Source of the DNA: Minisyncoccota bacterium
GTDB lineage: Bacteria; Patescibacteriota; Minisyncoccia; Phycocordibacterales; JBBDKB01
DNA: 38,227 bases
Direction: 5' to 3'
Assembly (NCBI GenBank): GCA_040879605.1
Contig: JBBDKB010000027.1
Location: 18,250-56,476, forward strand
The notes under the pieces are model-generated. The model worked only from the letters and a program-made list of their open reading frames with translations, did no database searches and was not told the DNA's origin. Below, in pieces: positions 24,489 to 36,540 of this stretch. How positions within the stretch are numbered: the first letter of the stretch is position 1; every line of letters starts with the position of its first letter. The translations under genes were made by a program, and so were the position numbers.

Positions 24489-24561
24489 CCGCCTATAGCT
24501 CAATTGGCAGAGCAGTCCCCTTTTAAGGGAAAGGTTCCAGGTTCGATTCCTGGTGGGCGGA
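24489..24561 (+). tRNA. tRNA-Lys (anticodon UUU), CCA not encoded
   Basis: Hand-folded cloverleaf: acceptor CCGCCTA/TGGGCGG, D arm GCTC-AATTGGCA-GAGC, anticodon arm GTCCC-CTTTTAA-GGGAA, variable AGGTT, T arm CCAGG-TTCGATT-CCTGG, discriminator A. The 1-72 pair is an unusual C-G. Confidence 0.8.
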
Positions 24562-24562
24562 C

Positions 24563-30480: not shown

Positions 30481-31428
30481 CTACAGGATTCTCTTTTTTG
30501 GGCATGTCGTAAGAAAAGCAACCTCTTCAGTGAGTTCCTTTCTGTTTTTTGGAGTTGTTTTTAAGATAACACAGCCATCAAACGGCATCGAAATGGAATT
30601 ATCCCCTCCGTCGGTGGCGATAACTGTCCCTTTCGAAATTTTTTTAAAATCCTCTATTCCTGGGGCGAAGTTGTATGAGAAGTTTGGGAATAATATTGAA
30701 TCCCTTACTTTGTACTCCGTGTACTCTTTTTTAGGCGTCCGGTGCGTTTTTTTAAGCATGTCTAGATTTTCTAGCATGATAGTAGACGCGGCAGTCGCTC
30801 TCTCAAAGGATGTTGGGGATTCATGAGAACCGGCTTCAATTGCAAAAACTTGATCACTCGGTTTTTGACCATAGAAGAAAAAAGCAGGTTTGTTGATCTG
30901 GATCTTATCAATATTTGAAATCAAAGTGTCGATAGGTATTCCTTCGATTAAACCAGAATGAAAGGTATTTTCTCTACCAATAATCATCGGCTTCATTTCC
31001 GATCGGGTACTGTGAATATCAAGACCATGTGTGAACTTCTTCCAAATTGGGAGAAGTTCACGTGCGCGAGCTATCTCGTAATTCTCTGAGGTGTGAGCTT
31101 CTTGAATGTCTATCGGAAGACGATTCATGTTTATATCGATAAAACGAGACAAACTGTCGCCCTCAAAATATTTTTCTGCTGCTCTGATATTATTAACAAT
31201 TAAGTAAAGTTCACCACGAAGTAAATTTTTTTCTACATCAACTTCATGGAGTAGATAGCTAAAAGCAGCCAATCCCGCAGGTTCGTTGCCGTGTGTACAA
31301 GCGGTTATTCCAACAATTGGACCCGGTTTGCTTGATGAAATGTGAAAAACCCCCTGAACATTTTTGTTGCTTTGCTCAAGGAAAAAGGAAAAAATTTCTC
31401 GATCTGAATGTTTCTTGAAGTTGGACAT
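30481..31428 (-). CDS. Succinylglutamate desuccinylase/aspartoacylase (AstE/AspA) family zinc hydrolase
   Basis: 315 aa. The metal-binding GITACTHGNEPAG (HxxE) and later LDIHST motifs are typical of the family. Confidence 0.75.
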   Translation of the reverse strand: MSNFKKHSDREIFSFFLEQSNKNVQGVFHISSSKPGPIVGITACTHGNEPAGLAAFSYLLHEVDVEKNLLRGELYLIVNNIRAAEKYFEGDSLSRFIDINMNRLPIDIQEAHTSENYEIARARELLPIWKKFTHGLDIHSTRSEMKPMIIGRENTFHSGLIEGIPIDTLISNIDKIQINKPAFFFYGQKPSDQVFAIEAGSHESPTSFERATAASTIMLENLDMLKKTHRTPKKEYTEYKVRDSILFPNFSYNFAPGIEDFKKISKGTVIATDGGDNSISMPFDGCVILKTTPKNRKELTEEVAFLTTCPKKRIL

Positions 31429-31440
31429 TTTTTAAGTTTA

Positions 31441-31475
31441 CCAAAAAAGAAGGAGCACATTCGTTGACGTGCTCC
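31441..31475 (-). terminator. Intrinsic terminator after the GNAT-like gene
   Basis: The minus strand reads GGAGCAC-gtcaacgaat-GTGCTCC followed by TTCTTTTTTGG. Confidence 0.65.
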
Positions 31476-31496
31476 CTTAGTGTGATGGCGCCGTCA

Positions 31497-32207
31497 TTAC
31501 CTGGAGCCAATAAAGAGAAAACCGTTGCGGGTTTTGCTGTCCTGAATCCCGAGGGCCTCTGCAAACCAGGTGTTTACGTCCGGGTTGTTTGATAGAGGAA
31601 TTTGAGGATACAAGCATCTGCCGTATAGGTTTGACACCACGCCGCTTTCAGGGCAGAAACCTTCATCACGGCCCCCTAAGAGTTTTTTTGCATCTTTCTG
31701 AAGGCTTGAGGGAATCCCGGTGGTTGTATTTGGGAAGATCTCAGTAACTAGCGACCTTCCCAGACAGAACATGACAGGACTTTGCGTGGTAAAACACATT
31801 TGTGGAAGATTGCTATTTCCCCACAAATGCTGGACGAGAAGTTTCGCCACCCCTTTGTTTTTTGTTGAGTGTCGCACAGCAACACCGTGGAGGTGGAAAA
31901 AACTTTTGTCGAGAAATTTTCCAGCGGCAAAACCTTGAATTTGTCCTCGCGAGCTCGCGATCGCAAACGCATCTATGTTTTGTATGTGCGCTCGGATCCC
32001 ATCGGCTGAAGCCTCATCAAGCTCGCCTCCGAAACTTTCGACTGTGAACTCGGTTATTTCGCGCACCATTTTTTGGACAAAAGGTACAGCGGTATCCCAT
32101 ACGAGACTCTGGTCCGGGGCTGTTACAAGATGTACCGCAAACTCACCATGTGGTGTTGTTGCGAAAACAAAGAGGTCATCAAGCGAACGTGGCCTTAGCG
32201 GGTTCAT
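31497..32207 (-). CDS. GNAT-fold acyltransferase-like protein (T-box-controlled)
   Basis: The motif-A-like segment is FHLHGVAVRHSTKNKGVAKLLVQHL. The start is set at ATG 32207 (MNPLRP), preceded by AAGGAG 7 nt upstream. The longer track ORF would begin inside the terminator stem. Confidence 0.5.
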   Translation of the reverse strand: MNPLRPRSLDDLFVFATTPHGEFAVHLVTAPDQSLVWDTAVPFVQKMVREITEFTVESFGGELDEASADGIRAHIQNIDAFAIASSRGQIQGFAAGKFLDKSFFHLHGVAVRHSTKNKGVAKLLVQHLWGNSNLPQMCFTTQSPVMFCLGRSLVTEIFPNTTTGIPSSLQKDAKKLLGGRDEGFCPESGVVSNLYGRCLYPQIPLSNNPDVNTWFAEALGIQDSKTRNGFLFIGSR

Positions 32208-32257
32208 GGGCTGTCTCCTTATTTGTGTGAAAGAACGTTTGGATTTCACTAAATGCA

Positions 32258-32494
32258 AAATCCGCCCTCGCGATACAAATAAAAAATACTTGTATCGTAA
32301 GGGCGGATTTCCGCGGTGCCACCTTACTTCACTCTATTGAGTCTCTCACCGACTCATGCACTCCAAAGAGTAGATATCGGTTATCCCATGGTTACGGGGG
32401 AGTCCGGATTCTCACTCACGCAAGAATCTCCCTGCCTTTCGGCGACCGTAGCCCAACCCCCTGAGATCCAGGGGACTACAGTCAAAAGATTTAA
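32258..32494 (-). promoter_or_regulatory. T-box riboswitch-like leader (antiterminator/terminator switch)
   Basis: The minus strand AAGGUGGCACCGCG (complement of 32312-32325) matches the T-box core AGGGUGGNACCGCG at 13 of 14 positions. The antiterminator AAGG-[UGGCACC bulge]-GCGG-AAAU-CCGC-CCUU spans 32325 down to 32299. It overlaps the 5' arm of a 19-bp terminator (32310 down to 32258) followed by UUUUGCAUUU. A possible promoter is TTGACA (32532-32527), 18 nt, then TAGCCT. Confidence 0.7.
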
Positions 32495-32537
32495 CTGATC
32501 TGAGGCTAACATATGCCTCAAGACTTTGTCAACTGGT

Positions 32538-33407: not shown

Positions 33408-34556
33408 ATGTCTCTCAAGACACAAGTCGGCCCACTGAAACTACAAACGCCGTTGTTGCTGGCTTCAGGGTACATTACCGAGACGCCAGAGTTCTTTCTA
33501 CGAGCCCTACCGTATGGCTGTTCGGGCATGGTCACCCGGTCGCTCAAACAACATGTTCCACCGGAACGTTCAAGGATTACCGTCCCGCGCTACGCAGTTT
33601 TTGGTCAGGACAATATGCTCAACTGCGAGTGGGGCAACGAAAATCCGTGGACAGATTGGCGAGATCACGGCATCCGCCAAGTCAAGGAAACAGGCTATCC
33701 CGTCATTATCTCGATCTCGGGACGAGATTTGGATAGCTGTTGTTATTTGATCCGTGCTTTTGACGAGATTGGTGTTGATGCTTATGAGATCAACATCTCC
33801 TGCTCCCATTCCGGGGCACTGCACGGGAATCTGAACGTTAATGCACTTCATCTGGAGCAGCTGATGAAAAAGGTGCGTGGTGTTACAACAACACCAATCT
33901 GGATCAAATTGTCGTACTCGAACTTGCTGTTCTCGATGGCAAGACGAGCGGAAGAACTGGGGGCCAATGCTATCGTCTGTACGAACAGCATAGGTCCTGG
34001 AATGTTGATCGACACCAAAACTGCCAAACCGAAACTTGGAATCAAGGGCGGTGGCGGTGGAGTAACGGGAAAAGCAATTTTCCCAATCGCTCTGTGGTGC
34101 GTACATCAGCTTTCGGAGACGCTTAGCATCCCAGTCGTCGGCTGTGGTGGAATTTTCACCGCTGACGATGTAGTCCAGATGCTTATGGCAGGTGCAAGTG
34201 CGGTTCAGATTTACACCGCGCCAGCACTTAAGGGTCCGAGGGTCTTCAGGCGGATCGCAACCGGCTTACAGAGGTTTCTCGATGAGAACCCGAAGTACAG
34301 TTCGATCAAAGATCTCATTGGACTCACGCTCGAAAAAACTGGCGAACACCAATTCTCGTCGCTTCGTCCGGTCGTGATTGAGGAGAGATGTACAGGTTGC
34401 GGAATCTGTATTCACTCCTGCGCATTCGATGCTCTTTCAATGGTTCGTCGAACAGACAAAAAACCACTCGCGGTTATTGCTGATAACTGCATTTCGTGCA
34501 ACGCATGCGTTGGAGTATGTCCTCTGAAGTTCGACGCGATCAAGGCGTCATTTTAG
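33408..34556 (+). CDS. Dihydroorotate/dihydropyrimidine dehydrogenase-family flavoprotein with C-terminal 2x[4Fe-4S] ferredoxin domain (PreA-like architecture)
   Basis: 382 aa. The TIM-barrel motifs are LLLASG, EINISCSHSG, GGGGGVTGKAIFPIAL and VGCGGI. The C-terminal cluster motifs are CTGCGICIHSC and CISCNACVGVCP. A strong SD (AAAGGAGGG) is present. Confidence 0.8.
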   Translation: MSLKTQVGPLKLQTPLLLASGYITETPEFFLRALPYGCSGMVTRSLKQHVPPERSRITVPRYAVFGQDNMLNCEWGNENPWTDWRDHGIRQVKETGYPVIISISGRDLDSCCYLIRAFDEIGVDAYEINISCSHSGALHGNLNVNALHLEQLMKKVRGVTTTPIWIKLSYSNLLFSMARRAEELGANAIVCTNSIGPGMLIDTKTAKPKLGIKGGGGGVTGKAIFPIALWCVHQLSETLSIPVVGCGGIFTADDVVQMLMAGASAVQIYTAPALKGPRVFRRIATGLQRFLDENPKYSSIKDLIGLTLEKTGEHQFSSLRPVVIEERCTGCGICIHSCAFDALSMVRRTDKKPLAVIADNCISCNACVGVCPLKFDAIKASF

Positions 34557-34867: not shown

Positions 34868-35482
34868 CTACAAATTGAACCTATTTTTGAAATAATTTGA
34901 GGTATGGTTTTTGTACTCAAAAATTTCATTAGATTCTTTGTTAAGAGTATCTATATATTCAAAAAATTGTTGCTTATTAAATACCTCAAGACCAAGGCTT
35001 TTACAAACATCCGTTATTTCTTTAATTATTTTATCGGCGTCTTCATTTTCGTGCGCCATTTTCTCTGCTTCATAGTAATAACTATGTCCCGGTACTTCTA
35101 CGAGCGCGAATTCAATGTCCCTGTATTCATAGACTTTACTTTTTCTTACGCATAGCATTCCTTTACAGAATCCAAGTGCACCGAAAATCTCAACAAGGGT
35201 ATCGAACTCTCCCTCTTTTGTAAAAACTGAAAGTTCTTTTCTTTGCTCAGCCTCTCCCCATTCGCCAATTTTAACGATAATCTCAGGAATACCATTTGTT
35301 ACTCGCAATCGTATATCTTTATTCCTATTCTTAACGCCGCCTTCTAAAAAGGTTGAGTAATCAATCAAAACTCTATTTTTCTCTGTTATCTTTTTTGCTT
35401 TCGTTTCAAATAGATTAACTAAATCGCCAAATTTTTCTTTGGACAATGGGCCTCGTATTTCTATTTCAATATTTTTACTCAT
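34868..35482 (-). CDS. CYTH domain protein (CyaB/ThTPase-type triphosphate tunnel enzyme)
   Basis: 204 aa. The N-terminal EIEIRG is ExExK-like. RLRV, KELSVF, EFALVEVPG and YYYEAEK strands fit a CYTH tunnel. There is an ATGA overlap with the upstream TruD-like gene. Confidence 0.75.
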   Translation of the reverse strand: MSKNIEIEIRGPLSKEKFGDLVNLFETKAKKITEKNRVLIDYSTFLEGGVKNRNKDIRLRVTNGIPEIIVKIGEWGEAEQRKELSVFTKEGEFDTLVEIFGALGFCKGMLCVRKSKVYEYRDIEFALVEVPGHSYYYEAEKMAHENEDADKIIKEITDVCKSLGLEVFNKQQFFEYIDTLNKESNEIFEYKNHTSNYFKNRFNL

Positions 35483-36540
35483 AATTTACTAATTTTTAGA
35501 AAAATTTGTTTAATGATCATGGTGGCATAACTGCCGGTAGGCAGAAAAAACAAAATGGTTAGTTTTTTCTTGTTCTTGTGCAACTCGTCTTTTTCTAAGT
35601 TGTCAGCATATATTGTAGTCGCAACCACGACATTCCTGTTTTTAACTTTTCGTTTGGTTGTAAATTTCTCGTCCTTGAATTCATACCCGTTTACCTCACA
35701 AATATAAGGACACTGAAATGAGCGCGTTGTTGGCAAATACAAATCTCCAACATTTTCAAAATGAAATTTTTTGCTTTTAGTATTGTCTTTGATCAGTAAA
35801 GAAGTCCGATTATTCCAAAGAAAGCTATTATATGAAGAAACAAAGAAAGAAACTTTTTTGGGGTTGATTTTTTTAAAAACTTCTTTACAAGAAATAACAT
35901 TTTCCAATTTTGGGAAAAAGCTAGGCAGAATGTTGTTTGTAGCTTTCATATGACTATAGGCCTCTATCCAATCTCTTTTTACTATTGCCTCACCAATCAA
36001 GTAAGTATTGTAAGGTCCGCCCGGCATTCCAAATCTTTGATTGTCGTAATAATTTACGAACTGATGGTGTCTGTGAGTTGAAAGATAATCTAAAAGATTC
36101 TTCGCAACATTGCTTTCCAGATTTCTAACTACAATTCTAAACGAATTCCCGTGCAACATTCGCTCTTTTATTGGCTTATCTCCATAACCAATAACATGTT
36201 TGATTAGGGCGTACTGATTTCCTTCTCCATACTTTTTATTGAAAGCCGTAATATCCTTTTTACTCAAGATTTTTTTAACAGAAATAAGTTGTTCTGTAAT
36301 TGCATCCTCGTCCTTTAATCCTTGATTGGCAACATCTTCAAATTTGAGATTGAAAAATGACTTAATATAATCCAGGACATCAAAGGTCGTAAGTCCGGAT
36401 TTTTGAAGCCAAAAATACGTAAATTGAGAAGGTTTTTTAGATGCAAGAGGAGGCATTAAAGAAACCTCCGTCACCTGGAAGTCTTCGTTTTTACATTTTA
36501 TTTTGTACCCTTCAGGCTTGTTCATAATGTATAAGAACAT
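35479..36540 (-). CDS. TruD/Pus7-family pseudouridine synthase-like protein
   Basis: 353 aa. Motifs are EDFQVTEV, the catalytic-type GLKDEDAITEQ and NYYDNQRFG. The first ATG (36540) is the last triplet of leader copy R. An alternative ATG is at 36525. Confidence 0.8.
   Translation of the reverse strand: MFLYIMNKPEGYKIKCKNEDFQVTEVSLMPPLASKKPSQFTYFWLQKSGLTTFDVLDYIKSFFNLKFEDVANQGLKDEDAITEQLISVKKILSKKDITAFNKKYGEGNQYALIKHVIGYGDKPIKERMLHGNSFRIVVRNLESNVAKNLLDYLSTHRHHQFVNYYDNQRFGMPGGPYNTYLIGEAIVKRDWIEAYSHMKATNNILPSFFPKLENVISCKEVFKKINPKKVSFFVSSYNSFLWNNRTSLLIKDNTKSKKFHFENVGDLYLPTTRSFQCPYICEVNGYEFKDEKFTTKRKVKNRNVVVATTIYADNLEKDELHKNKKKLTILFFLPTGSYATMIIKQIFLKISKL

What the first reader, a model, noticed from the sequence alone, without database searches (positions are those of the whole stretch)
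32258..32494. T-box-type riboswitch leader controlling a GNAT-like gene rather than an aminoacyl-tRNA synthetase
**Seen on the minus strand.**
- AAGGUGGCACCGCG matches the conserved T-box core AGGGUGGNACCGCG at 13 of 14 positions.
- It folds into the canonical antiterminator: helix A1 AAGG/CCUU, a 7-nt bulge UGGCACC, and helix A2 GCGG-AAAU-CCGC.
- The 3' half of that structure (AAAUCCGCCCU) is also the 5' arm of a long terminator hairpin. The outer stem is 11 bp, AAAUCCGCCCU/AGGGCGGAUUU, and the inner stem is 8 bp, CGAUACAA/UUGUAUCG.
- The terminator is followed by UUUUGCAUUU. Then come AAGGAG and the ATG at 32207.
- Upstream lie about 170 nt with several helices, including a GCC-GAAA-GGC hairpin, and a TTGACA -35 hexamer.

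**Established.** The UGGN bulge pairs with the tRNA NCCA end. N = C here predicts a tRNA with discriminator G73, which in bacteria means Asn, Asp, Gln, Glu, Ser or Trp.

**Not resolved.** I could not assign Stem I or the specifier codon by eye.

**Inference.** The downstream 236-aa GNAT-fold protein is probably an amino-acid-linked or tRNA-linked acyltransferase. That is an unusual T-box target, and T-boxes themselves are not typical of this kind of reduced genome. The whole block looks G+C-enriched and possibly acquired.
Basis: partly seen in the sequence, partly recalled or inferred. Interest (0 to 1): 0.7.

Follow-up and report, generated by a model that had tools for sequence, protein, structure and literature searches.

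The report
Tryptophan-sensing T-box variant in ultrasmall bacteria
The leader is a real but atypical T-box riboswitch, one of at least 38 related leaders found almost only in Patescibacteria (CPR) genomes; it most likely senses uncharged tRNA-Trp and switches on an uncharacterised acyltransferase, and standard annotation misses it.

Summary
On the minus strand at 32494-32251 lie a T-box antiterminator (A1 GUAAGG/CCUUAC, bulge UGGCACC, A2 GCGG/CCGC) and an overlapping terminator with a U-tract, then an SD and the ATG of a 236-aa GNAT-fold protein. Rfam's T-box model scores only 32.6 bits (gathering score 93), so by that criterion the call fails. Comparative evidence rescues it. I found 47 homologous leaders (38 distinct), nearly all in Patescibacteria/CPR MAGs and metagenomes, all below Rfam's threshold. 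On 28 of them, 96% of cells pair and 28 of 49 pairs show compensatory changes. A family-specific model scores the window at 183.5 bits. An invariant 3'-strand bulge, UUGGG, sits where a specifier belongs. UGG (Trp) is the only triplet shared by all three Stem I variants. The bulge base is only C or U, as in known Trp T-boxes, and linked tRNA-Trp genes all have G73. Targets are not Trp-tRNA ligase or trp-operon genes but GNAT-like or GCS2-like ligases, usually followed by an AstE/AspA-like hydrolase, plus TrpD-like and other enzymes. I rate it a new variant of a known kind. Enzyme function remains unknown.

The parts
32527..32532 (-). TTGACA, a possible -35 hexamer upstream of the leader
   Evidence: Read directly from the sequence. 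The promoter scan found no matching -10 at standard spacing, so the transcription start is not established.
32296..32493 (-). T-box leader core, from Stem I through the antiterminator
   Evidence: Family-specific covariance model R1: 183.5 bits, E about 1e-53, full length. Rfam RF00230: 32.6 bits, full model length, below the gathering score of 93.
32428..32490 (-). Remodelled Stem I domain. It comprises weak basal helix P1 (AUCUU 32490-32486 with GGGAG 32432-32428), a K-turn-like UGA (32484-32482), Stem Ia (CUGUAG 32481-32476 with CUACGG 32451-32446), and Stem Ib (UCCCCUG 32475-32469 with CAGGGGG 32463-32457).
   Evidence: Covariation counts: all 6 Stem Ia pairs and 3 of 6 Stem Ib pairs show changes on both sides. 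RNAalifold recovers Stem Ia and Ib without my input. P1 forms only 4 of 5 pairs in the window.
32452..32456 (-). Invariant 5-nt bulge UUGGG on the 3' strand of Stem I. The proposed specifier is UGG (32455-32453, Trp), followed by purine G32452.
   Evidence: UUGGG in 37 distinct leaders and AUGGG in 1, while both flanking helices vary. Rfam's model places UGG-A of the canonical-Stem-I member L056 at its specifier-plus-purine position. The bulge is left unpaired in the window's MFE fold and in RNAalifold.
32434..32443 (-). Extra hairpin P3 (GCC-GAAA-GGC), inserted between Stem I and the 3' strand of P1
   Evidence: The stem covaries across the family (GCC/GGC, GUUC/GAAC, GCCCC/GGGGC and others). 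The loop is usually a GNRA tetraloop, and P3 is absent in L034. It is therefore a real hairpin and not a specifier loop.
32408..32427 (-). Stem II (AUUCU/AGAAU) with the conserved loop UGCGnnAGUG
   Evidence: 4 of 5 pairs show changes on both sides and 99.3% of cells pair. Rfam aligns the AGU to the Stem II AGUA element.
32381..32407 (-). Stem IIA/B pseudoknot with an F-box-like CCGUAA (IIA CGG/CCG; IIB UCCC/GGGA)
   Evidence: Aligned to the Rfam IIA/F-box positions with high posterior probability. All pairs are compatible but invariant. Most of this stretch lay inside my search patterns (21 of its 27 bases were fixed by the metagenome pattern), so its invariance cannot be counted as independent evidence.
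32348..32381 (-). Additional stem (ACCGAU/GUCGGU) with an inner hairpin, between the pseudoknot and Stem III
   Evidence: 3 of 6 pairs show changes on both sides and 98.8% of cells pair. Recovered by RNAalifold.
32328..32347 (-). Stem III (ACUC-AAUA-GAGU) flanked by the purine string GAGAG ... GAA
   Evidence: [quoted passage not shown] The 3 nt immediately 5' of A1 end in AA in 35 of 41 distinct aligned rows.
32297..32327 (-). Antiterminator: A1 GUAAGG/CCUUAC, bulge UGGCACC (32321-32315, variable base C32318), A2 GCGG-AAAU-CCGC
   Evidence: A1 and A2 covary across the family. The bulge base is C in 29 and U in 9 distinct leaders with an aligned Stem I bulge (2 further U via L004 and L056), never A or G.
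32251..32310 (-). Intrinsic terminator (stems of 11 and 8 bp) plus U-rich tail. Its 5' arm overlaps the 3' strands of A2 and A1.
   Evidence: The same overlap and U-tract occur in essentially all family members.
32211..32246 (-). Post-terminator segment: AAAUCC, complementary to the terminator's 3' arm; the pyrimidine motif GUUCUUUC (32236-32229), which can pair with the SD; and the SD AAGGAG (32220-32215)
   Evidence: Both features recur and covary across the family. Their role is not resolved.
31497..32207 (-). Regulated gene: 236-aa GNAT-fold acyltransferase of an uncharacterised family
   Evidence: Pfam PF00583 24.3 bits against a cut-off of 20.7. AF2 model with pLDDT 80.7 and pTM 0.81. 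Foldseek top hits are generic GNATs with TM 0.4-0.6. 432 representative relatives, mostly about 235 aa. The same family sits behind the same leader in L003 and L036.
31450..31477 (-). Terminator-like hairpin with a U-run between the GNAT gene and the next gene
   Evidence: A comparable hairpin lies in the same intergenic position in 8 sister loci.
30481..31428 (-). Conserved downstream partner: AstE/AspA-like zinc amidohydrolase (315 aa, THGNEP motif)
   Evidence: Pfam PF24827 42.1 bits. It is the second gene behind 14 family leaders and is 46-49% identical to those in the Kaiserbacteria and Parcubacteria loci.

Best explanation
The leader is a transcription-attenuation T-box riboswitch of a divergent clade found in Patescibacteria/CPR. 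It most likely monitors charging of tRNA-Trp(CCA).

Shown:
- The RNA can adopt either an antiterminator or a terminator that share a strand.
- The architecture (Stem I, Stem II, IIA/B pseudoknot, Stem III, discriminator) is conserved and covaries in at least 38 distinct leaders.

Inferred mechanism:
1. The tRNA-Trp anticodon CCA pairs with UGG in the invariant Stem I bulge (32455-32453). Stem II and the pseudoknot buttress this pairing, because Stem I lacks the elbow-binding platform.
2. The uncharged 3' end G73-C-C-A pairs with UGGC of the T-box bulge. This stabilises the antiterminator, so RNA polymerase reads through into the GNAT gene.
3. Charged tRNA-Trp cannot stabilise the antiterminator. 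The terminator forms and transcription stops at about 32255.

Physiological reading (inferred): Trp limitation induces the GNAT-like enzyme. Probably by partial read-through of a second hairpin, it also induces the AstE/AspA-like amidohydrolase. Both belong to a CPR-specific tRNA-Trp regulon of amide-forming and amide-cleaving enzymes whose substrates are unknown.
For: Switch anatomy is in the sequence.

Family:
- 13 genome and 32 metagenome loci were retrieved with a pseudoknot pattern. Every true hit has GGUGG[C/U]ACC (GGUGACACC in L027) 51-156 nt downstream.
- Covariation: 96.3% of cells pair, against 39-54% with slid partners. 28 of 49 pairs change on both sides, and 0 of 500 shuffles reach the observed values.
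- RNAalifold recovers the main helices on its own.
- Covariance model R1 scores the window at 183.5 bits and ignores the chance-hit loci.

Trp specificity:
- UUGGG or AUGGG is invariant between variable helices.
- L056, from the same clade, has a canonical Stem I reading GAA-UGG-A at Rfam's specifier position.
- L062 and L051 have an ultrashort Stem I with UGG in the terminal loop.
- The bulge base is only C or U. TBDB reports that 46% of Trp T-boxes have U opposite G73.
- 6 of 16 tRNA genes in the loci are tRNA-Trp(CCA). All have G73, and the 5 that share a locus with a leader sit beside UGGC leaders; L001 has no leader. Counted as 4 of 13 independent genes, P is about 1.5e-4.
- Aromatic-linked genes occur in the regulon: TrpD-like in 4 loci and CM_2 in 3.
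Against: - Rfam's T-box model is far below threshold (32.6 against 93).
- Stem I lacks the AG bulge and distal-loop platform.
- The base pair at the base of A2 is canonically a G.U wobble that senses the aminoacyl group (PMC7583486). In the window it is G-C. Across the family it is G-C in 26 of 41, G.U in 8 and A-U in 5.
- The triplet is followed by G rather than the usual A and is not preceded by GAA.
- No Trp-tRNA ligase or trp operon was found among the targets.
- TyrRS follows leaders with the same UGG bulge in two lineages.
- P1 is weak in the window.
- No transcription start site, tRNA-binding data or read-through data exist.
- All members were retrieved with patterns derived from this leader, so the family's uniformity is partly by ascertainment.
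Confidence: 0.7

Rival explanations
1. It is a T-box for another G73 tRNA (Asp or Glu), with the specifier elsewhere. Candidates are GAC in the junction UGAC (32484-32481) and GAA in the P3 loop GAAA (32440-32437). The aspartoacylase-like neighbour would then suggest Asp.
For: GAC or GAU occurs at the junction in many members, and a GAAA loop occurs in many P3 hairpins. The neighbouring gene belongs to the AstE/AspA family. UGGC fits any G73 tRNA.
Against: The junction varies between members (UUGA, AUGA, AU-A, AA-G, CAUA, or absent) and coincides with the K-turn GA motif that Rfam aligns there. P3 loops vary (AGAU, GUAU, longer hairpins) and P3 is missing in L034. Neither triplet survives in L056, L062 or L051, whereas UGG does. 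The linked tRNA genes are Trp, not Asp or Glu.
Confidence: 0.07
2. The leader keeps a T-box-like discriminator but no longer reads a codon. It senses the charging of any tRNA with a purine at position 73, or is regulated by a protein or another ligand. The UUGGG bulge would then be a structural element.
For: There is no elbow platform, the steric-sensor pair is non-canonical, the bulge is identical in front of functionally unrelated genes including TyrRS, and the Rfam score is low.
Against: Stem II and the IIA/B pseudoknot are retained. According to PMC7583486, these exist to support the specifier-anticodon duplex in short-Stem-I T-boxes. The canonical relative L056 has UGG at the specifier position. 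tRNA-Trp genes are linked to the loci.
Confidence: 0.1
3. It is a decaying or non-functional T-box relic. The intact terminator would act constitutively or merely as the terminator of an upstream gene.
For: The Rfam score is below threshold, P1 is weak in the window, and one relative (L027) has a mutated bulge, UGACACC.
Against: Conservation with compensatory changes across at least 38 distinct leaders and several candidate phyla indicates purifying selection on the whole fold. The leader always lies immediately 5' of a gene on the same strand.
Confidence: 0.04
4. Regulation is mainly translational, or dual. The conserved pyrimidine motif GUUCUUUC sequesters the SD, and the hairpin formed by the terminator's 3' arm with the downstream AAAUCC couples the T-box state to ribosome access.
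For: Both post-terminator features recur and covary in the family. Translational T-boxes are known in Actinobacteria (PMC7583486).
Against: Every member has a strong hairpin followed by a U-tract, the signature of transcription termination. I could not derive a consistent switching logic for the SD hairpin.
Confidence: 0.15

Closest known systems
Canonical transcriptional T-box leaders of Firmicutes (Rfam RF00230), e.g. Bacillus subtilis tyrS and Trp-specific T-boxes
   Same: A 7-nt UGGNACC bulge between helices A1 and A2. A terminator that competes for the same strand, followed by a U-tract. Stem II, a IIA/B pseudoknot with an F-box-like CCGUAA, and Stem III with flanking purines. C or U opposite G73, as TBDB reports for Trp T-boxes (PMC7778990).
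   Different: No AG bulge or distal-loop platform in Stem I. An extra hairpin is inserted at the K-turn. The specifier sits in a 5-nt bulge and is followed by G. There is an extra stem between the pseudoknot and Stem III. The base of A2 is G-C instead of the G.U wobble. Scores are 27-73 bits against a gathering score of 93. The targets are not synthetase, biosynthesis or transporter genes of known function.
Actinobacterial ileS T-boxes with short or ultrashort Stem I (Mycobacterium tuberculosis, Nocardia farcinica; described in PMC7583486)
   Same: Stem I is truncated and has no elbow-binding platform. [quoted passage not shown] Two clade members, L062 and L051, have the triplet in a terminal loop, like the ultrashort class.
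   Different: The actinobacterial T-boxes act on translation by sequestering the SD, are Ile-specific and control ileS. The window's leader has an intrinsic terminator, a UGG triplet, the extra hairpin P3 and non-synthetase targets.
Trp T-boxes of Chloroflexi (Dehalococcoides trpE and trpB-like; PMC2494555)
   Same: They are Trp-specific T-boxes outside Firmicutes and Actinobacteria, in small-genome bacteria.
   Different: They precede recognisable Trp-biosynthesis genes. Their structure was not compared here.
GNAT amino-acid N-acetyltransferases such as EctA (PDB 6sjy), paired with AstE/AspA-family deacylases
   Same: GNAT fold with an acyl-CoA-binding motif region. EctA is the best sequence match, though weak (E = 0.0018). 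A GNAT next to an AstE/AspA-type amidohydrolase recalls acylate-then-deacylate pairs; this last point is from my own knowledge and was not tested.
   Different: Only about 12% identity to any solved GNAT. There are about 80 extra residues with the family-specific motifs FTTQNPxMFC, LYGRCLYP and TRNGFLF. No substrate can be assigned.

Membership tests
T-box leader (RF00230) | T-box sequence forming a 7-nt bulge UGGNACC between helices A1 and A2 | tested here: met
   GUAAGG-UGGCACC-GCGG...CCGC-CCUUAC at 32327-32297. A1 and A2 covary.
T-box leader (RF00230) | A mutually exclusive intrinsic terminator that uses the 3' strands of A2 and A1, followed by a U-tract | tested here: met
   Terminator at 32310-32258 plus a U-rich tail. 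In the window's fold, 9 of 10 overlapping positions pair in the terminator. The same arrangement occurs across the family.
T-box leader (RF00230) | Stem I presenting a specifier triplet on its 3' strand, followed by a purine, that matches a tRNA whose discriminator matches the bulge base | tested here: met
   UGG then G in the invariant bulge at 32456-32452. tRNA-Trp(CCA) genes linked to the loci have G73 opposite UGGC. The assignment is comparative, not experimental.
T-box leader (RF00230) | K-turn (GA motif) at the base of Stem I | tested here: inconclusive
   UGA lies on the 5' strand and GA on the 3' strand (GGGAGAU) in the window, and Rfam aligns them to the GA motif. However, hairpin P3 is inserted on the 3' side, and some members lack the GA.
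T-box leader (RF00230) | Stem I distal platform (AG bulge plus distal loop, interdigitated T-loops) that stacks on the tRNA elbow | tested here: not met
   Above the bulge there is only a 7-bp hairpin with a variable loop. The Rfam alignment deletes this part of the model. Within the clade only L056 has the platform.
T-box leader (RF00230) | Stem II, and a Stem IIA/B pseudoknot containing the F-box | tested here: met
   Stem II covaries, with 4 of 5 pairs changing on both sides. IIA and IIB pairs are 100% compatible. CCGUAA matches the F-box CCGUUA at 5 of 6 positions. Most of the pseudoknot stretch was fixed by my search patterns, so the absence of covariation there carries no information.
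T-box leader (RF00230) | Stem III flanked by the purine string 5'-RRRxG ... AA-3' | tested here: met
   GAGAG-ACUC/GAGU-GAA at 32347-32328. AA precedes A1 in most members. The motif definition comes from PMC7583486.
T-box leader (RF00230) | G.U wobble at the base of helix A2 (steric sensor of the 3'-aminoacyl group) | tested here: not met
   G32314-C32303 in the window. Across the family: G-C 26, G.U 8, A-U 5. The feature definition comes from PMC7583486.
T-box leader (RF00230) | Score at or above Rfam's gathering threshold | tested here: not met
   32.6 bits against 93. All relatives tested score 27-73 bits.
T-box leader (RF00230) | Binding of uncharged cognate tRNA increases read-through | not testable with these tools
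   This needs in vitro transcription or reporter assays.
GNAT acyltransferases (Pfam PF00583) | GNAT fold with an acyl-CoA-binding motif A | tested here: met
   PF00583 scores 24.3 bits against a cut-off of 20.7 over residues 76-128. The AF2 model (pLDDT 80.7) matches only GNAT structures. The motif reads KNKGVAK.
Aminoacyl-tRNA-dependent transferases (Fem, L/F-transferase) | Sequence or fold similarity to Fem or Leu/Phe-tRNA protein transferase families | tested here: not met
   No Pfam, NCBIfam, PDB-sequence or Foldseek match to these families.
AstE/AspA zinc amidohydrolases (Pfam PF24827), for the neighbouring gene | Catalytic-domain match with the HxxE zinc motif | tested here: met
   PF24827 scores 42.1 bits against a cut-off of 25. 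THGNEP is present. There is no close solved structure by sequence. NCBIfam AstE and AspA equivalogs are far below their cut-offs, so the substrate is unknown.

The most novel reading that the evidence does not exclude
Patescibacteria/CPR carry their own structurally remodelled class of T-box riboswitch. It has a short Stem I without the elbow platform, a junction hairpin at the K-turn, and usually no G.U sensor pair. Every member retrieved here reads tRNA-Trp. The class defines a previously unrecognised Trp-starvation regulon of uncharacterised enzymes: GNAT or GCS2-type ligases with an AstE/AspA-like amidohydrolase, TrpD-like and PEP-synthase-like enzymes, a chorismate-mutase-methyltransferase fusion, and even TyrRS. 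On this reading the regulon is a new aromatic-amino-acid salvage or conjugate-recycling pathway in ultrasmall symbionts that cannot make Trp.
Probability: 0.4. Interest if true: 0.8.

Novelty: new variant of a known kind. Interest (0 to 1): 0.68.

Why it matters
**Coverage of current annotation.** T-boxes are textbook regulators, thought to be largely confined to Firmicutes with outposts in Actinobacteria, Chloroflexi and a few other groups (PMC2494555). I found no open-access paper linking them to Patescibacteria. This clade falls below Rfam's threshold (27-73 bits), so genome annotation and threshold-based catalogues would skip it.

**For RNA biologists.** It offers a natural experiment. The clade has three Stem I designs around one specifier, an inserted hairpin at the K-turn, and a Watson-Crick pair where the aminoacyl sensor wobble normally sits.

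**For CPR biology.** Regulation and nutrient acquisition in these organisms are largely unknown. The leader flags genes that respond to Trp limitation. That gives a concrete handle on the function of several families of hypothetical enzymes, and a native RNA switch that might be adapted as a genetic tool.

Tried and rejected
- **Rfam at gathering threshold.** No T-box call on the window. Only the permissive scan found it.
- **GCC-GAAA-GGC as a Gly (GGC) or Glu (GAA) specifier loop.** Rejected: the stem covaries, and the loop and length vary or the hairpin is absent.
- **GAC or GAU in the junction as an Asp specifier.** Rejected: it is not conserved and coincides with the K-turn GA motif.
- **UUG (Leu) or GGG (Gly) as readings of the bulge.** Rejected: L062 has AUGGG and L056 has UGGA. 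Leu and Gly tRNAs (A73 and U73, from my own knowledge) would not fit UGGC.
- **The first protein search.** It found only 4 relatives of the GNAT, and three of those loci lack the leader. The exhaustive profile search showed the family is larger, with 432 representatives.
- **P0006 locus.** It was too short to show an upstream region.
- **PDB sequence search with the AstE/AspA-like protein.** No hits.
- **Foldseek.** It gave only generic GNATs and no substrate clue.
- **Searching for a TrpRS target.** L022's second leader precedes a PEP-synthase-like gene instead.
- **A switching logic for the post-terminator hairpins.** A GUGAAA/UUUCAC pairing seen in the window is not conserved.
Full report
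**1. What is in the sequence**

All the features below are on the minus strand.

- T-box core AAGGUGGCACCGCG: 32324-32311.
- Helix A1: GUAAGG (32327-32322) pairs with CCUUAC (32302-32297).
- 7-nt bulge UGGCACC: 32321-32315.
- Helix A2: GCGG-AAAU-CCGC, 32314-32303.
- Terminator: 32310-32258. Its 5' arm, AAAUCCGCCCU, is the 3' half of the antiterminator.
- U-rich tail: 32260-32251.
- SD AAGGAG: 32220-32215.
- ATG: 32207. It opens a 236-codon ORF that ends at 31497.

The 261-nt leader folds much better than shuffled sequence (z = -6.1).

**2.

- Rfam's T-box model (RF00230) gives no hit at its gathering score on the whole window.
- In a 501-nt scan it aligns over its full length (model positions 1-219) at 32494-32296. 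The score is only 32.6 bits against a gathering score of 93 (E = 1.3e-5).
- The alignment places the K-turn UGA, the Stem II AGU, the F-box-like CCGUAA and the T-box with high posterior probability. It deletes most of Stem I.

**3. Comparative evidence**

*Finding the family.*
- The GNAT protein had only four relatives in the word-indexed search.
- One of them, L003, is about 41% identical. It carries a homologous leader with a perfect AAAUUGGGUGGUACCGCG and visibly compensated helices.
- I searched with the pseudoknot segment shared by the two leaders. This retrieved 21 genome loci. Thirteen were true leaders, all but one (L013, binned as Gammaproteobacteria) in MAGs labelled Patescibacteria, Saccharibacteria, Parcubacteria, Paceibacterota, Kaiserbacteria or Liptonbacteria. 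The rest were chance hits without a T-box.
- The same approach retrieved 32 metagenome loci, all with GGUGG[C/U]ACC 51-148 nt downstream.
- This gives 47 leaders, of which 38 are distinct.
- Essentially every one has an antiterminator whose 3' strands are also the 5' arm of a hairpin followed by a U-tract.

*Covariation.* I aligned 28 typical-length members (A1) and tested a structure written onto the alignment columns.
- 96.3% of cells form standard pairs, against 39-54% when the 3' partners are slid by 1-3 columns.
- 28 of 49 pairs show changes on both sides.
- 0 of 500 shuffles reach any observed measure.
- Stem Ia (6 of 6 pairs), Stem Ib, Stem II, the stem after the pseudoknot, A1 and A2 all covary.
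- RNAalifold recovers Stem Ia and Ib with the bulge, Stem II, that extra stem and A2 without my input.

*Family-specific model.* Covariance model R1 gave the following.
- It scores the window's leader at 183.5 bits.
- It finds no second copy in the window.
- It gives no significant hit in the chance loci (best 17.7 bits, in L026).
- It reveals a second copy in L022.

*Rfam scores of the relatives.* All relatives tested score 27-73 bits, below the gathering score of 93.

**4. Anatomy and how it differs from the canon**

Feature definitions come from review PMC7583486.

Present:
- A K-turn-like UGA/GA at the base.
- Stem II with a conserved UGCGnnAGUG loop.
- A IIA/B pseudoknot with CCGUAA.
- Stem III flanked by GAGAG ... 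GAA, which fits the RRRxG-Stem III-AA purine string.
- The discriminator.

Different:
- Stem I is short. Above the internal bulge there is only a simple hairpin, with no AG bulge or distal-loop platform.
- An extra hairpin, P3, is inserted between Stem I and the 3' strand of the basal helix. It covaries, usually has a GNRA loop, and is elaborated or absent in some members.
- An additional stem lies between the pseudoknot and Stem III.
- The pair at the base of A2 is canonically a G.U wobble described as the primary steric sensor of the 3'-aminoacyl group. In the window it is G32314-C32303. Across the family it is G-C in 26 of 41, G.U in 8 and A-U in 5.
- P1 is weak in the window, with 4 of 5 pairs, two of them G.U.

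**5. The specifier**

A specifier belongs on the 3' strand of Stem I, between Stem Ib and Stem Ia. At that position every member has a 5-nt bulge. It reads UUGGG in 37 distinct leaders and AUGGG in one, while both flanking helices vary freely.

Three clade members have other Stem I designs.
- L062 and L051 have an ultrashort stem with ...A-UGG-G or ...U-UGG-G in the terminal loop.
- L056 has a canonical Stem I with an AGCGA bulge and a GGGAUAGUGAAAGCC distal loop. Rfam aligns its GAA-UGG-A exactly to the consensus specifier plus purine.

UGG is the only triplet common to all of them. Independent support comes from several directions.
- The variable base of the T-box bulge is only C (29 distinct leaders) or U (9 with an aligned Stem I bulge, plus L004 and L056). 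TBDB reports that Trp T-boxes are the exception in which 46% carry U opposite G73 as a wobble pair (PMC7778990).
- Of the 16 tRNA genes that happen to lie in the fetched loci, 6 are tRNA-Trp(CCA). All have G73. Five of them share a locus with a leader, and those leaders read UGGC; the sixth is in L001, which has no leader.
- L032, L033 and L052 diverge exactly at their tRNA-Trp gene, possibly an assembly junction, so I count them as one observation. That gives 4 of 13 independent genes and P about 1.5e-4.
- L001 holds a GNAT homolog without a leader. It still has tRNA-Trp 1.4 kb away and a chorismate-mutase-methyltransferase gene next door.

I rejected four other readings: GGC or GAA in P3, GAY in the junction, and UUG or GGG in the bulge. 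The reasons are given under the things tried and rejected.

**6. What the leaders control**

No retrieved leader precedes a Trp-tRNA ligase, a recognisable trp operon or a transporter.

First genes behind the leaders:
- GCS2/YbdK-like carboxylate-amine ligases: 12 loci.
- The window's GNAT family: W, L003, L036.
- A remote GNAT-like relative: L018, L061.
- TrpD-like phosphoribosyltransferases: 4 loci (trpD model 99.8 bits, below its cut-off of 199).
- PEP-synthase-like enzymes: L040, L059 and the second copy in L022.
- Proteins of unknown function of 133 aa and 292 aa.
- LMW-phosphatase-like proteins.
- TyrRS, in two lineages (TIGR00234, 359 bits).

Second and nearby genes:
- An AstE/AspA-like amidohydrolase is the second gene in 14 loci, including the window (30481-31428). 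It is the third gene in L013.
- GGCT-like proteins, and CM_2 or CM_2-methyltransferase proteins, recur nearby.

In the window and in eight sister loci, a terminator-like hairpin with a U-run separates gene 1 from the AstE/AspA-like gene. In L003 and L056 the two genes overlap. The leader therefore certainly governs the GNAT gene, and co-transcription of the second gene may be only partial.

**7. The GNAT protein**

- Pfam PF00583 is just above its cut-off.
- The profile search against PDB sequences gives weak matches to EctA and other amino-acid N-acetyltransferases. These cover only the motif A region (E = 0.0018).
- The AF2 model (pLDDT 80.7, pTM 0.81) matches only generic GNATs, with TM 0.4-0.6 and about 12% identity.
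- An exhaustive profile search shows a family of 432 representative clusters, mostly about 235 aa. The family-specific motifs are FTTQNPxMFC, LYGRCLYP and TRNGFLF.
- Nothing resembles Fem or L/F-transferases.

So the protein is an acyl-CoA-type N-acyltransferase of unknown substrate. A link to aromatic amino acids is suggested only by the regulation and the gene neighbourhood.

**8.

- The G+C content of the two genes (0.42-0.44) is ordinary for the window (0.34-0.50). Only the structured leader is GC-rich, at 0.53. There is no sign of a recently acquired block.
- The window's AstE/AspA-like protein is 46-49% identical to those in the Kaiserbacteria and Parcubacteria loci. This fits vertical membership in this group. 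The window's own taxonomy was not determined directly.

**9. Mechanism**

- *Shown:* two mutually exclusive folds, conserved by selection.
- *Inferred:* uncharged tRNA-Trp binds through CCA:UGG and through G73-C-C-A:UGGC. This stabilises the antiterminator and allows read-through into the GNAT gene. Charged tRNA-Trp lets the terminator form.
- *Open:*
  - whether G-C at the base of A2 still senses the aminoacyl group;
  - whether the post-terminator hairpin and the anti-SD-like motif add a translational layer;
  - why TyrRS sits behind the same UGG leader;
  - what the enzymes do.

**10. Novelty**

- The regulatory principle is known. Trp T-boxes and non-synthetase targets are also known (PMC2494555, PMC7778990).
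- As far as I could check, three things are new: the clade's presence in Patescibacteria, its remodelled Stem I and sensor pair, and its target set.
- No paper in the searchable library combines T-box with CPR, Patescibacteria or Saccharibacteria. A 2024 perspective on Patescibacteria mentions riboswitches only as prospective tools.
- I cannot exclude that some members (L062, L056, L034, at 60-73 bits) were caught by earlier, laxer catalogues.
- All members were found with patterns derived from this leader, so I cannot claim that CPR T-boxes are exclusively Trp-specific.

Noticed in passing
window 32262-32211 (-); also L042, L048, L057, L058, L045, L010, L015: After the terminator, its 3' arm and U-tract can pair with a downstream A-rich complement to form a third hairpin (window GGAUUU...AAAUCC; elsewhere CGGUUUUU/AAAAACCG and GGGGAUUUUU/AAAAAUCCCC). 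A conserved pyrimidine motif, GUUCUUUC, can pair with the Shine-Dalgarno sequence. This may be a second, translational layer of control.
   Followed up: partly
window 31450-31477 (-); L036, L015, L023, L037, L039, L042, L049, L061 intergenic regions: A GC-rich hairpin, followed by a U-run in most loci, is conserved between the first regulated gene (GNAT or GCS2-like) and the AstE/AspA-like gene. This suggests an internal attenuator or terminator that sets different expression levels for the two genes.
   Followed up: partly
L034 and L041 (leader, then an 82-aa zinc-ribbon ORF, then TyrRS); L044: A bona fide tyrosyl-tRNA synthetase (TIGR00234, 359 bits) lies behind leaders that carry the same UGG bulge and no Tyr codon in any Stem I loop. 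This is unexplained if the family is Trp-specific.
   Followed up: partly
L001 1681-1755 and 1817-2980; L061 and L023 downstream genes: A chorismate mutase (CM_2) domain, often fused to a SAM methyltransferase, recurs next to the GNAT/GCS2 and AstE/AspA-like genes. In L001, which has no leader, a tRNA-Trp gene lies beside it.
   Followed up: partly
L033 4573-4644 and L052 4194-4265, compared with L032: A tRNA-Trp gene without an encoded CCA lies about 470 nt upstream of the leader on the same strand. The otherwise identical contig L032 diverges exactly there. This may be an assembly junction at a repeated tRNA gene or a real rearrangement.
   Followed up: partly
L027 (Saccharibacteria MAG), T-box bulge: One family member has UGACACC instead of UGGCACC. 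This breaks pairing with the tRNA CCA end, so the copy may be inactivated.
   Followed up: no
L048, L058, L040 and L025, hairpin P3: In some members P3 is elaborated into a longer hairpin with an internal loop, UGA opposite GAA or AAA, that resembles a GA or K-turn-type motif.
   Followed up: no
window 24489-24562 (+): tRNA-Lys(UUU) is the only tRNA gene in the window. There is no tRNA-Trp gene within these 38 kb.
   Followed up: yes
window 33408-34556 (+) and 35479-36540 (-): Neighbouring genes include a dihydroorotate-dehydrogenase-like protein fused to a 4Fe-4S dicluster domain, and a TruD-type pseudouridine synthase. Neither is related to the leader.
   Followed up: no
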